Shown here piece by piece: positions 18,001 through 21,000 of a DNA stretch of 64,000 nucleotides (position 1 is its first letter; each line of letters opens with the position of its first letter). Location: NCBI RefSeq assembly GCF_057098645.1, contig NZ_CM169472.1. The stretch is one strand, 5' to 3'. Made by a program: the position numbers.

Positions 18001-21000
18001 GAAGGGCTTCCGCTGCCGGATTCATACGATGCTCCGGATCCGCGCATTAAACAGCTGGCGCGCCGCAGTACAGTGACGCCGGGTGGGGCTGCCTGCAGAT
18101 ATAACGATATTATTCCGGCCGACCACTGCCTGCATGATGTGCAGGATATGAGTACGCTGAATCATCCGAAGGCAGACCTGAGCAAAGGGCAGTACGGCTG
18201 TGTCGGCCAGGGCTTACATATTGCCAAAAAACTGCTTCCGTATATCCCGAATAACGCGGGGATCCTGCTGGTACCATGCTGTCGTGGTGGTTCGGCATTC
18301 ACCCAGGGCGCGGAGGGGACATTCAGTGCGGACGCGGGGGCCAGCCAGGATTCGGCGCGCTGGGGTGTGGGTAAACCGTTATATCAGGACCTGATTGCGC
18401 GCACTAAAGCTGCATTACAGAAGAACCCGAAAAATGTGTTGCTGGCGGTGTGCTGGATGCAGGGAGAGTTTGACATGAGCGCCGCCACCCACGCACAGCA
18501 ACCTGCGCTGTTTACAGCCATGCTGACACAGTTTCGTGCTGACCTCTCCGTGTTTAACGCGCAGTGCCATGGTGGCAGTGCTGCAGATGTGCCGTGGATT
18601 TGTGGTGACACGACGTATTACTGGAAAAATACATACGCTACCCAGTACGACACCATTTACGGGGCGTACAAAAACAGGGAGAGTGAGGGCGTTTATTTTG
18701 TGCCCTTCATGACAGACGGTAACGGCGTCAATACCGCCACTAACGCGCCGGCAGAAGATCCGGATATTCCGGCATCAGGATATTACGGTGCGGCATCGAG
18801 AACGAATGGAAACCAGGTATCATCAAACCGCCCGACACATTTCAGTTCATGGGCGCGCAGGAGCATTATTCCGGATCGTCTGGCAACCGCTATTCTGAAC
18901 GCAGCCGGGCGCACCTCAGCCTTCATCAGTGGTAAGGCACCGGAAATCAAACCCTCGCCCGGCGGCAACACGCCATCGGGTCCGTCTGCAGATACGTCCG
19001 TTCGCACAATCTCCCTGCTGCCGGCAGCCGGAGAGGCTGCTGCGCAGGGCTGGAGCATTAAGGATGGCGGAATTCAGTTGTCAGATGGTGTATTTAAGAT
19101 CACCAAGCAGAGCAATAAAACCTGGTCCCTGACGCATCCGGTGGATGACGCAATTACCCTGCTGACACAGGGCGGCAGACTGACCTGTAAGTTCCGCCTG
19201 TCAGGCGCACTGACCAACAATCAGTTCGGGCTGGGGATTTATCTGTATACGGATGCTCCCGTTCCTGATGGTGTGGCGATGACGGGTACCGGTAATCCGT
19301 TCCTGATGTCGTACTTCACTCAGACCACTGACGGCAGAGTGAATCTGATGCATCACAGGAAAGCCGGAAACACGAAGCTGGGGGAGTTCGGCGATTACGG
19401 TAACGACTGGCAGACGCTGGAGCTGGTGTTCACCGCCGGCAGTGCCACGGTTACTCCGAAACTGAATGGAGTGGCTGGCCCGGCATTCCAGGTTATAAAA
19501 GACAGTCTGACACTGGGACTGAATGCGCTGACGCTGACGGATGTTACAAAAAATGCAGCGTATGGCGTTGAGATAGAAAGTCTGATGCTGGAGATAAATG
19601 CACCGGCAGCATAATAAAAAAAGCCAGCGCCCACTCTGAAGGACGCTGGCTAAAACGGGTAGATGTACTTCACATGATACTTATATTTGGCAGTACATTT
19701 TCTGACAGACAGTGACGGATGTTGTCAAGATATTGTGTCATTTATAACCTGAATCAGGGGTTGGTCGGAATGTTATCTGGCATTTTTAGCAGAGCCTGAA
19801 TGCCATAATCACGGCTCCCGGAGTTGGCCGTCAGTGGGTGACACTGGCGGCTTTTTGTTTTCCTTTACTTTCATTTTCTGTCGGCGGTGACGGAGACATA
19901 CATCAGATGGAAAAAATCACAACGGGTGTGTCATACACCACGTCAGCGGTGGGGACGGGATACTGGTTACTGCAGCTGCTGGACAAAGTCTCTCCGTCCC
20001 AGTGGGTGGCAATAGGTGTGCTGGGGAGTCTGCTGTTTGGCCTGCTGACGTATCTGACTAACCTTTATTTCAAGATTAAAGAAGATAAGCGTAAGGTGGC
20101 GCGGGGAGAGTAGTCGATGAATAAACAATACGAACTGGTTGTAAAATGAATATTTCTAACTGAAAAAACGTTCCATGAGGTGAGAAAAGGTCACAGGCAA
20201 TCAATAACAGGACGTGATGAAAGACCCTTGCATTTGTGCGCTTTCTCTTTAGATAGCAGCAGATACTGAAAATCTGAGTTGTCGGGGAGTCAGGGATACA
20301 GCTGTGCAAGAGTTGGTCATTGTGATTCCATTGAAATCCTGTATGCCATGAAGGGCAGGATTTTATGGCTACCTGAGCTTTGGTGATAGTAAGTTGAAAA
20401 TTCGCATTTTTTGCTGACATGCGTAACGAGAATCCCATAAGCAGGGAGGACTTAATTCTTCATTAACCCATGCGTTGATATTATGTTTCAGCCGTTGAAG
20501 CATCAGCGGTGTTAATGTTGTGGTAATAATATCCAGCGTTTTATGTGAGATCTTACCGTAAGGGTCTGCAAGAATGCTGCTTGTTGCTTCGTTATTATCT
20601 GCCATCAGAAGAAGTAACTCTGATTTAACGTTTTCTGTCATTAGTTGTAAAAATCTTCTGCGCAAACTTTCTTTACTGTTCATTTATATGGCTTCATTTG
20701 TTGTAATCTGCTGCGTCTCAAGGGATATGTTTATGAGAGCGACCATGAGTGTTGGATTATATACCTAACATATCAAGGGATTAGAAATCGATAAATCCCC
20801 ATGAACGAAAAAATAAAATACGGCCTGTCGGCTGCCGTTCTGGCGCTGATTGGTGCAGGTGCTTCTGCGCCTGAAATCCTCGACCAGTTTCTGGATGAAA
20901 AGGAAGGTAACCACACCACGGCATACCGTGATGGTGCGGGGATCTGGACCATCTGCCGTGGTGCCATTCTGGTGGATGGTAAGCCTGTTATTCCTGGCAT

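What the first reader, a model, noticed from the sequence alone, without database searches (positions are those of the whole stretch)
20114..20800. AT-rich 690-bp insert with an opposite-strand ORF between holin and endolysin
Holin and endolysin genes are normally adjacent. Here they are separated by AT-rich DNA carrying a 104-aa minus-strand ORF (20369..20683) with no recognisable domain. A convergent gene inside the lysis cassette could be a moron or a lysis-timing or immunity factor.
Basis: seen in the sequence. Interest (0 to 1): 0.4.

Follow-up and report, generated by a model that had tools for sequence, protein, structure and literature searches.

The report
Backward accessory gene inside prophage lysis cassette
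The DNA between the holin and endolysin genes of this E. coli prophage carries a real, conserved small gene of unknown function on the opposite strand. It is an ordinary add-on gene in a slot that varies from phage to phage, not an oddity of the lysis machinery.

Summary
Window 20114-20800 is 39% G+C against about 52% for its neighbours, and it carries a 104-aa minus-strand ORF (20369-20683).

The ORF is a genuine gene:
- Pairwise dN/dS against relatives is 0.13-0.28.
- 91 of 94 copies are intact.
- Relatives have clear ribosome-binding sites in front of the same start codon.

It belongs to a very narrow Escherichia/Salmonella prophage family (PHROG 1853, function unknown). The predicted soluble five-helix bundle has no informative match in PDB or BFVD.

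The holin-endolysin slot is normally occupied, usually by ydfR (DUF1327). Here ydfR survives only as a 10-codon stub (20117-20149).

Most divergent relatives of the ORF lie tail-to-tail with a late-strand gene (PHROG 1085, the C-terminal domain of 'long YdfR'). That partner is missing from this window. The solo ORF is still more conserved than the spacers beside it.

The identical insert occurs in about 620 of 5,426 complete E. coli genomes (O157 Sakai ECs1097, O26, O103, O145 and others), always as 'hypothetical protein'.

Best reading: a moron, transcribed against the late operon and so probably expressed in the lysogen, that acts by binding something. Nothing supports a role in lysis timing or immunity. 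The biochemical function is unknown. Interest is low to moderate.

The parts
19907..20113 (+). P21-type class II holin (68 aa, single start codon); left border of the slot
   Evidence: PF04971 E=1.9e-32. PHROG holin families. Relatives carry MYQM/MKSM dual-start N-termini that are absent here.
20117..20149 (+). Ten-codon stub (MNKQYELVVK, then a stop) of the usual slot occupant ydfR (DUF1327)
   Evidence: DNA homology with YYZ-2008 ydfR and with phage 86 orf5 runs from the holin to window 20152 and then stops. tblastn matches the first 12 residues of YdfR and orf5 at 75% identity. Coordinates checked.
20153..20368 (.). Spacer of unknown origin, about 215 bp, between the ydfR stub and the 3' end of the ORF. 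It is probably just the 3' untranslated region. An 8-bp-stem hairpin (20334-20363) without a U-run lies right after the stop codon.
   Evidence: No similarity to the partner genes of relatives. It always travels with the ORF: 626 versus 630 E. coli genomes. It is 91.2% identical in E. coli M18 where the ORF is 97.1%. RNA folding z-scores are +0.14 and -1.69. No Rfam family matches here; the one weak hit (SNORD45, E=0.77) lies at 19723-19784, outside the insert. The overlapping 120-aa ORF 20076-20438 shows 18 nonsynonymous against 2 synonymous changes, so it is not a gene.
20369..20683 (-). The 104-aa gene (PHROG 1853; = ECs1097 of Sakai prophage Sp4; databases annotate a 90-aa version). Predicted soluble five-helix bundle.
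   Evidence: dN/dS 0.13-0.28 with an excess of third-position changes. 91 of 94 copies intact, 29 alleles. PHROG 1853 E=3.5e-47. AF2 pLDDT 89, pTM 0.81. The upstream start codon is supported by SD sequences in relatives and by Ile/Leu at 'Met15' in several alleles.
20684..20762 (-). The gene's own 5' region. It has a perfect -10 hexamer TATAAT (20761 to 20756 on the minus strand) and no good -35. The SD (GAAG) is weak.
   Evidence: This region is about 80-82% identical to the same region in L004-L009, as part of the block that carries the ORF. The hexamer is kept in L007 and E. coli M18 and reads TACAAT in L004. The consensus scan, which needs both hexamers, did not call it. It is therefore a putative promoter only.
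20763..20800 (+). Conserved leader of the endolysin gene; right border of the variable segment
   Evidence: Homology with YYZ-2008, phage 86 and L019 resumes at window 20763-20766.
20801..21334 (+). Phage lysozyme. The Gly/Ala-rich hydrophobic N-terminus suggests the signal-anchor-release (SAR) type.
   Evidence: PF00959 E=3.2e-24. N-terminal sequence. The SAR assignment is an inference from the sequence and was not tested.

Best explanation
The segment is the variable slot between holin and endolysin of a lambdoid prophage with a P21-type lysis cassette.

How it arose (inferred). In relatives this slot holds ydfR (DUF1327). Here recombination replaced ydfR, leaving a 10-codon stub. The replacement is a foreign AT-rich block with about 215 bp of unconstrained spacer and one real gene on the opposite strand.

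What the gene is (shown). It is a moron-type accessory gene. It encodes a 104-aa soluble five-helix protein of a narrow Escherichia/Salmonella prophage family (PHROG 1853). It is kept by purifying selection, and is kept even without the late-strand partner gene (PHROG 1085, the C-terminal domain of 'long YdfR') that lies tail-to-tail with most of its divergent relatives.

How it probably works (inferred).
- It points against the Q-dependent late operon. It is separated from upstream minus-strand genes by a hairpin terminator at 21425-21457. So it must be transcribed from its own promoter, probably the conserved TATAAT at 20761-20756.
- It would therefore be made when late transcription is off, that is in the lysogen, and be overrun during lytic growth.
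- It has no catalytic-looking motif, its net charge is not conserved (pI 4.6-9.3), and its conserved residues cluster in the loop and helices 4-5. So it most likely acts by binding another protein rather than as an enzyme or a general nucleic-acid binder.

Its target and the benefit it gives are unknown.
For: Real gene:
- dN/dS 0.13-0.28 in six pairwise comparisons.
- 91 of 94 copies intact, all 104-106 aa apart from a few C-terminal frameshift variants.
- Clear SD sequences (GAGG/GGAG) before the same ATG in divergent relatives.

Constraint without the partner:
- In E. coli M18 the solo ORF differs at 9 of 315 positions (6 synonymous codon changes, 3 nonsynonymous). The two spacers differ at 31 of 333 positions; Fisher p=0.0009.
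- Further solo or effectively solo cases exist: L079/L082, and L007 where the partner is frameshifted.

Moron criteria:
- Absent from closely related cassettes: YYZ-2008 and L015-18 have only ydfR or long ydfR, and L019-22 carry an unrelated 95-aa minus-strand gene at the same spot.
- G+C 39% against 52%.
- No flanking repeats, so the block is a recombination mosaic rather than a transposon.

Independent transcription:
- Opposite strand.
- Conserved -10 hexamer.
- Hairpin terminator upstream on its strand.

Protein properties:
- Confident helical model.
- No membrane segment.
- Variable pI.

Spread: the identical insert is in about 620 of 5,426 complete E. coli genomes and in 47 IMG/VR prophage contigs.
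Against: - There is no direct evidence of transcription or translation.
- The promoter is only a -10 hexamer with no -35, and the consensus scan did not call it.
- No canonical terminator follows the gene.
- The SD of the window allele is weak.
- Near-identity of the solo insert across about 620 genomes reflects recent spread, so most of the evidence for selection comes from paired relatives plus one divergent solo copy.
- No homology or fold match gives a function, so 'binding protein' is an argument by exclusion.
- Repeated association with holin genes of three families could mean a link to lysis rather than mere position.
Confidence: 0.6

Rival explanations
1. Antagonist of the late-strand partner. 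The protein binds and neutralises, or regulates, the PHROG 1085 / long-YdfR protein encoded tail-to-tail with it. The two would be expressed in opposite states: ORF104 in lysogeny, the partner from the late operon. In this window the gene would be an orphan that may act in trans on partner or long-YdfR proteins made by co-resident lambdoid prophages.
For: 28 of 30 IMG/VR loci with the 51-67% alleles, plus phage 86, L004-L006, L008-L009 and L010-L014, have the partner immediately convergent. The 3' ends are 10-25 bp apart or overlap by 18-33 bp. The pair moves as a unit between two positions, the S-R slot and upstream of holins of three families. Genomes carrying this insert often hold 2-3 copies of it, one per lambdoid prophage.
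Against: Each gene occurs widely without the other. Long YdfR sits alone in L015-18, and its protein P0145 is indexed in 147 blocks of the collection. ORF104 sits alone in about 625 genomes and is still constrained. No interaction could be tested: the partner model was poor (pLDDT 52) and no multimer prediction was available. No partner is present anywhere in the 64-kb window.
Confidence: 0.15
2. Lysogenic-conversion function directed at other phages or at the host (superinfection exclusion, defence or anti-defence), unrelated to lysis. This is a specific sub-case of the moron reading.
For: The region from Q through the lysis genes of lambdoid prophages is a classic site for such cargo (established knowledge; moron definition in PMC2629481). 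In L014 a HicA/HicB pair lies nearby. The gene is kept even in the degraded, IS-ridden prophage Sp4 of O157.
Against: No PADLOC model matches ORF104 or its partner. No fold resembles a known defence or anti-defence protein. A single 12-kDa helical protein without an enzymatic motif is not a typical stand-alone defence system.
Confidence: 0.12
3. Lysis-timing regulator. The protein modulates the pinholin or the endolysin, in an antiholin-like way.
Confidence: 0.07
4. The effect is in cis and the protein is secondary. Convergent transcription from the minus-strand promoter, or the antisense RNA it makes, dampens read-through from the holin gene into the endolysin gene in the lysogen.
For: The putative promoter fires head-on into the late operon, just upstream of the endolysin gene. 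Unrelated small minus-strand genes occupy the same spot in other prophages (L019-22). That would fit selection for orientation rather than for the product.
Against: The protein sequence itself is under purifying selection (dN/dS 0.13-0.28; synonymous excess in the solo copy). A purely cis role would not produce that. In L010-L014 the gene lies upstream of the holin, not before the endolysin.
Confidence: 0.04
5. Non-functional hitch-hiker: a relic ORF carried along with the lysis genes.
For: The partner has been lost. The SD is weak and no canonical promoter or terminator is present. About 620 genomes carry a nearly identical copy, which carries little information about selection.
Against: dN/dS is well below 1. 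The ORF is three times more conserved than its spacers in the divergent solo copy. It is intact in 91 of 94 copies across alleles as low as 35-50% identical. The neighbouring overlapping 120-aa ORF shows the opposite pattern, 18 nonsynonymous against 2 synonymous changes.
Confidence: 0.02

Closest known systems
Stx2-converting phage 86 orf6 (BAF34038.1) and the other members of PHROG 1853
   Same: Homologous (about 49-53% identity), same 104-aa length, same position between S and R, same opposite-strand orientation.
   Different: In phage 86, orf6 is convergent with orf5, a fusion of the YdfR N-terminal domain with the PHROG 1085 domain. The window has neither, only a 10-codon ydfR stub. No member of the family has a known function.
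YdfR / DUF1327 (Qin prophage of E. coli K-12; YYZ-2008 gp44), the usual occupant of the holin-endolysin slot
   Same: Same slot, similar size, function unknown. The stub at 20117-20149 derives from it.
   Different: YdfR lies on the late-operon strand and is unrelated in sequence to the ORF (no Pfam hit). K-12 YdfR binds the catalytic half of RNase E and may bind RNA (PMC13232886). Nothing of that kind is known for the ORF.
Lambda bor, the textbook moron next to the lysis genes and transcribed against the late operon (from established knowledge, not tested here)
   Same: A small accessory gene next to the lysis cassette, in the opposite orientation to the late operon, with its own expression in the lysogen. 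This is the closest analogy for how the ORF is likely to be expressed.
   Different: Bor is an exported lipoprotein. The ORF has no signal peptide or membrane segment and no sequence or fold similarity to it.
Antiholins and lysis regulators (S21-71 and S107 dual-start products, T4 RI, P1 LydB) (from established knowledge)
   Same: Encoded in or next to lysis cassettes.
   Different: These are membrane or periplasmic proteins made from the late transcript. The ORF is soluble, lies on the opposite strand, and does not co-vary with the holin allele.

Membership tests
PHROG 1853 (phage protein family, function unknown) | Significant match to the family profile | tested here: met
   E=3.5e-47, 161 bits, residues 1-102 on profile positions 57-158 of 159.
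Moron (independently expressed gene inserted into a phage operon; definition as in PMC2629481) | Present at a position where closely related phages lack it | tested here: met
   YYZ-2008 and L015-18 have only ydfR or long ydfR between S and R. L019-22 carry a different gene there. No INPHARED phage holds the insert at the DNA level.
Moron | Base composition differs from the flanking operon | tested here: met
   39.2% G+C against 51.7% and 52.6% for holin and endolysin.
Moron | Own promoter and terminator (independent transcription) | tested here: inconclusive
   The opposite strand guarantees it is not a late-operon cistron. A perfect -10 hexamer is conserved in L007 and M18 and reads TACAAT in L004. 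There is no -35 and no canonical terminator, and the consensus scan called nothing. No expression data were found.
Moron | Dispensable for phage growth; benefits the lysogen | not testable with these tools
   Needs deletion and fitness assays.
YdfR / DUF1327 (PF07041) | Match to the Pfam model | tested here: not met
   No Pfam hit for the ORF at E<=0.01. YYZ-2008 YdfR and phage 86 orf5 hit at 5.4e-46 and 3.7e-45. Only the 10-codon plus-strand stub is ydfR-derived.
Antiholin / lysis-timing regulator | Membrane or periplasmic localisation (transmembrane segment or signal sequence) | tested here: not met
   The maximum Kyte-Doolittle 19-residue score is 0.66. The model is an all-helical soluble bundle.
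Antiholin / lysis-timing regulator | Co-expression with the holin from the late transcript | tested here: not met
   The gene is on the opposite strand to the holin, endolysin and Rz genes.
Antiholin / lysis-timing regulator | Altered lysis time when removed | not testable with these tools
   Needs an induction and lysis-curve experiment.
Type II toxin-antitoxin pair (ORF plus PHROG 1085 partner) | Co-directional bicistronic operon with recognisable toxin or antitoxin domains | tested here: not met
   The genes are convergent, not co-directional. Neither has a Pfam or PADLOC toxin or antitoxin domain.
Type II toxin-antitoxin pair | The toxin is not found without its antitoxin | tested here: not met
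   The partner domain occurs alone as long YdfR in L015-18, with only 36 bp before the endolysin gene.
Known anti-phage defence systems (PADLOC-DB v2) | Match to any defence-protein model | tested here: not met
   No hit at E<=0.1 for the ORF or for five partner proteins.

The most novel reading that the evidence does not exclude
ORF104 is a lysogeny-expressed protein with a previously unseen helical fold. It specifically binds and switches off a late-phase phage effector, the PHROG 1085 / long-YdfR family whose N-terminal domain in K-12 binds RNase E. Convergent transcription enforces either/or expression of the two genes. As an orphan copy in EHEC it would act in trans on co-resident lambdoid prophages. 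That would give one prophage a say over the late functions, and perhaps the RNA turnover or lysis, of its neighbours, including Stx phages.
Probability: 0.08. Interest if true: 0.6.

Novelty: new member of a known kind. Interest (0 to 1): 0.3.

Why it matters
In itself this is a routine finding: a small accessory gene of unknown function in a known mosaic hot spot of lambdoid prophages.

Three points make it worth recording.
- The gene is in about one in nine complete E. coli genomes, concentrated in EHEC/STEC lineages (O157, O26, O103, O111, O121, O145). It is annotated everywhere as a 90-aa 'hypothetical protein', whereas the evidence here favours 104 aa.
- It has a confidently predicted fold with no informative relative in PDB or BFVD. 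It also has a recurrent tail-to-tail association with the long-YdfR domain, which gives a concrete and cheap hypothesis to test by pull-down or co-folding.
- It shows that the holin-endolysin junction of P21-type cassettes is a cargo slot with at least five different fillings. This matters for anyone using gene adjacency to annotate lysis cassettes.

Tried and rejected
- **Structured RNA in the spacer or insert.** No Rfam family matched within the insert; the only hit at E<=1 was SNORD45 (E=0.77) at 19723-19784, outside it. Folding z-scores were +0.14 and -1.69. Rejected.
- **Mobile element with terminal or target-site repeats.** No meaningful direct or inverted repeats flank the insert. Rejected.
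- **The spacer 20153-20368 as a decayed partner gene.** tblastn with five partner or YdfR proteins found only the 12-residue N-terminal stub. blastn found no other related copy in E. coli or phage collections. Its origin remains unknown.
- **The overlapping 120-aa minus ORF (20076-20438) as a gene.** No family hits, and 18 nonsynonymous against 2 synonymous changes versus M18. Rejected.
- **Function from the partner.** The AF2 model had pLDDT 52 and was too poor for a fold search. It has no Pfam or PADLOC hit, only function-unknown PHROG families (chiefly PHROG 1085).
- **General nucleic-acid binding.** The pI ranges from 4.6 to 9.3 across alleles. Judged unlikely.
- **Literature.** No paper mentions ECs1097. 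The ydfR/DUF1327 search gave only the RNase E interaction study. Searches on lysis cassettes and morons gave only general definitions.
- **A partner gene elsewhere in the window.** None found.
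Full report
**1. 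What is in the sequence**

The window carries a complete lambdoid prophage. It runs from the integrase (315-1433, minus strand) to effector-like cargo, followed by chromosomal genes from about 58.4 kb.

The late region reads: SASA/NanS-p-type esterase (17764-19614), P21-type class II holin (19907-20113; PF04971, E=1.9e-32), phage lysozyme (20801-21334; PF00959, E=3.2e-24), Rz-type spanin (ORF 21605-22228; Phage_lysis, E=2.3e-39).

The 687 bp between holin and endolysin is 39.2% G+C, against 51.7% and 52.6% for the two genes. It holds a minus-strand ORF at 20369-20683 (104 aa). Only 1.7% of shuffles of the insert give an ORF that long.

**2. The ORF is a real gene**

- Pfam, NCBIfam and PADLOC give nothing, but PHROG 1853 (function unknown) matches at E=3.5e-47.
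- A word-indexed search of 5.8 billion proteins found 16 relatives. An exhaustive HMM search of 1.84 billion cluster representatives found only 20. The family is very narrow. Named members are all 'hypothetical protein' from Escherichia or Salmonella.
- Pairwise Nei-Gojobori dN/dS against three relatives (78%, 64% and 49% identity) is 0.13-0.28. Differences at third codon positions are two to three times those at positions 1 and 2.
- Of 94 copies gathered from public loci, 91 are intact ORFs falling into 29 alleles. Nearly all are 104-106 aa.
- Divergent relatives have clear Shine-Dalgarno sequences (GAGG, GGAG, AAGGA) in front of the same ATG. Several alleles have Ile or Leu where RefSeq places the start (Met15). 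The 104-aa form is therefore right and the 90-aa database annotation is probably 14 codons short.
- The overlapping 120-aa ORF (20076-20438) shows 18 nonsynonymous against 2 synonymous changes and is not a gene.

**3. The slot and how this filling arose**

Holin and endolysin are not normally adjacent in this phage group.

- *Related phage records.* A megablast of the holin-to-endolysin region matched 412 phage records, but none covered 80% of the query, so none contains this insert. The best matches align to the holin and the endolysin separately and have a 'hypothetical protein' or 'YdfR family protein' gene between them.
- *The usual occupant.* In YYZ-2008 the slot holds ydfR (DUF1327, 114 aa, late strand).
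- *Where homology breaks.* DNA homology between the window and YYZ-2008 or phage 86 runs from the holin to 20152 and resumes at 20763-20766. The first stretch includes an ATG at 20117 followed by ten codons (MNKQYELVVK) and a stop. This is the 5' stub of ydfR.
- *How it was built.* The variable block is about 20153-20762. It has no flanking repeats, so it is a recombination mosaic, not a transposition.

At least five other fillings of the region exist:
- short ydfR;
- long ydfR of 296 aa, which is DUF1327 plus a C-terminal domain;
- a 213-aa gene, a DUF1327 fragment and an unrelated 95-aa minus-strand gene;
- a late-strand 'partner' gene plus an ORF104 homologue;
- the partner/ORF104 pair placed upstream of the holin rather than after it.

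**4. The missing partner**

*The pairing.* In phage 86, L004-L006, L008-L009 and L010-L014, the ORF104 homologue lies tail-to-tail with a 184-268-aa late-strand gene. The same holds in 28 of 30 IMG/VR loci carrying the 51-67% alleles. The 3' ends are 10-25 bp apart or overlap by 18-33 bp.

*What the partner is.* It belongs to PHROG 1085 and has no Pfam or PADLOC match. It carries the conserved motif IGRCMGxLQxAAEIE...PPFK...WxxPG..YLKGR. It is the same domain that forms the C-terminal half of long YdfR, and phage 86 orf5 is such a fusion.

*Where the pair sits.* It appears next to holins of three different Pfam families. That argues it is one mobile module.

*The solo state.* The window allele, in every copy at 96% identity or more (47 IMG/VR loci), lacks the partner; the complete insert, which has no partner gene, is present in 625 complete E. 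coli genomes. The window itself holds no partner anywhere. Other solo or effectively solo states exist:
- L079 and L082, where the holin lies only about 100-135 bp from the ORF's 3' end;
- L007, where the partner is frameshifted.

The converse also occurs: long YdfR alone, with 36 bp before the endolysin gene. The two genes are therefore associated but not mutually obligatory.

**5. Is the solo gene still under constraint?**

Most solo copies are at least 99% identical and carry little information. One divergent solo copy (E. coli M18, 94% identical over the insert) is informative. The ORF differs at 9 of 315 positions (6 synonymous codon changes, 3 nonsynonymous). The two spacers differ at 31 of 333 positions (Fisher p=0.0009). 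The gene is constrained and the spacers are not. Consistent with that, the spacer 20153-20368 shows no RNA structure signal and no Rfam match.

**6. Expression (inferred)**

- The gene points against the Q-dependent late operon. It cannot be a late cistron, and strong late transcription should oppose it.
- On its own strand, the nearest upstream element is a perfect 13-bp-stem hairpin with T-runs on both sides at 21425-21457. That would insulate it from upstream minus-strand transcription.
- Its 79-bp 5' region is conserved with L004-L009 as part of the same block. It contains a perfect TATAAT (20761-20756). The hexamer is kept in L007 and M18 and reads TACAAT in L004. It has no -35 partner and the consensus scan did not call it.
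- No canonical terminator follows the gene. Only an 8-bp hairpin (20334-20363) without a U-run lies after the stop codon.
- No paper in the searchable library mentions ECs1097, its name in Sakai prophage Sp4.

Lysogenic, independent expression is thus the most economical reading, by analogy with lambda bor (established knowledge). It is not demonstrated.

**7. The protein**

- AlphaFold2 with an 8-sequence alignment gives a confident model (pLDDT 89, pTM 0.81): five helices at residues 3-26, 31-39, 47-56, 59-77 and 85-99.
- It has no hydrophobic segment (maximum KD19 0.66).
- The pI varies from 4.6 to 9.3 among alleles.
- Invariant residues include the PYG motif at residues 41-43 in the loop before helix 3. 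They also include the I-N-x-W-x-N-x-E-L-S run at the end of helix 4 and the W-D...A..QK...F..LS pattern along helix 5. There is no catalytic-type motif.

A protein-binding role is the best guess by exclusion.

**8. Weighing the readings**

- *Moron* fits every testable criterion except a demonstrated promoter and terminator.
- *Lysis timing* is disfavoured by strand, by solubility and by the lack of co-variation with holin and endolysin alleles.
- *Toxin-antitoxin* is disfavoured by the convergent layout, the lack of domains and the separability of the two genes.
- *Defence* has no model match.
- *A purely cis (antisense) role* does not explain selection on the protein sequence.
- *The partner-antagonist idea* is the most interesting reading that remains open. 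It is testable, but nothing here shows an interaction.

**9. Context on YdfR**

K-12 YdfR, the normal occupant of the slot and homologous to the N-terminal domain of long YdfR, was recently reported to bind the catalytic half of RNase E and to co-purify with RNA (PMC13232886). This bears on the partner family, not directly on ORF104.

**10. Verdict**

This is a real, conserved, widely distributed but functionally unknown accessory gene, in a known kind of place (a mosaic cargo slot of a lambdoid late region).

- The premise about adjacency is wrong for this phage group.
- The 'moron' reading is supported, and the 'lysis-timing or immunity' reading is not.
- Novelty: a new member of a known kind.
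- Interest: 0.3.

Noticed in passing
window 21425-21457: A perfect 13-bp-stem hairpin (AAAACCCCGTTTG / CAAACGGGGTTTT) with T-runs on both strands lies between the endolysin and Rz genes, inside the late operon. It looks like a bidirectional intrinsic terminator, at the place where many Stx phages carry the ant gene.
   Followed up: partly
window 21627-21758 (+): A 43-aa strongly hydrophobic ORF ([43 protein letters not shown]) lies just upstream of Rz. It is annotated 'hypothetical' in O26 11368, and a 43-aa gene recurs at this position in L015-L020. It may be an uncharacterised membrane component of the lysis cassette.
   Followed up: no
window 19898-19909: The holin has a single start (upstream codons Ile-His-Gln, then MEKI...). 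Relatives begin MYQM... or MKSM..., the dual-start arrangement that gives holin and antiholin forms in phage 21. This allele, also in YYZ-2008, would lack the longer form.
   Followed up: partly
L019-L022, locus coordinates 3402-3689 (-): In another version of the slot, an unrelated 95-aa minus-strand gene sits at the same spot, just upstream of the endolysin gene. It follows a 213-aa PHROG 1085 gene and a DUF1327 fragment. The position seems to attract small opposite-strand genes.
   Followed up: partly
window 20642-20683; RefSeq WP_000138558.1; Sakai ECs1097: All databases annotate the gene as 90 aa starting at Met15. Conservation of the 14 upstream codons, SD sequences in relatives and Ile/Leu at that position in several alleles indicate that the 104-aa form is correct.
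   Followed up: yes
L001 (Stx2 phage 86) orf5; L015-L018 locus coordinates 2501-3391: 'YdfR family' proteins come in a short form (about 103-114 aa, DUF1327 only) and in long forms (268-333 aa). The long forms add a conserved C-terminal domain (PHROG 1085) that also occurs as a separate gene. The AF2 model of that partner protein was poor (pLDDT 52).
   Followed up: partly
window 19826-19852; alignment A4 (phage 86, L014, L011): A GC-rich hairpin (GCCGTCAGTGG...CACTGGCGGC plus a T-run) lies upstream of the holin. Very similar hairpins lie immediately upstream of the ORF104 homologues in phage 86, L014 and L011. In phage 86 the T-run is on the ORF strand. Its role is unexplained.
   Followed up: no
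window 15167-16380 (-); whole window: An IS3-family transposase pair (rve and HTH_21 domains) lies upstream of the esterase gene, in the region where Stx phages carry stx. ARAGORN finds no tRNA gene anywhere in the window, whereas the O26 relative has tRNA-Ile and tRNA-Arg there.
   Followed up: no
window 47698-54038: AT-rich cargo at the far end of the prophage. One gene is a 782-aa SopA/NleL-like HECT-type ligase with pentapeptide repeats. The next is a 1,133-aa DUF4765 protein. They are followed by an LRR-like ORF (56683-58044) and then chromosomal ABC-transporter, peptidase M20 and JmjC/RoxA-like genes.
   Followed up: no
L025 (O157:H7 Sakai, prophage Sp4) and L023 (strain SS17): In O157:H7 the same module sits in a degraded prophage. 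In Sakai the lysis segment lies in the opposite orientation to the other late genes, between IS629 and ISEc8 copies. In SS17 the holin is annotated at only 165 bp next to an IS1203 copy. The ORF and the endolysin gene are still intact.
   Followed up: partly
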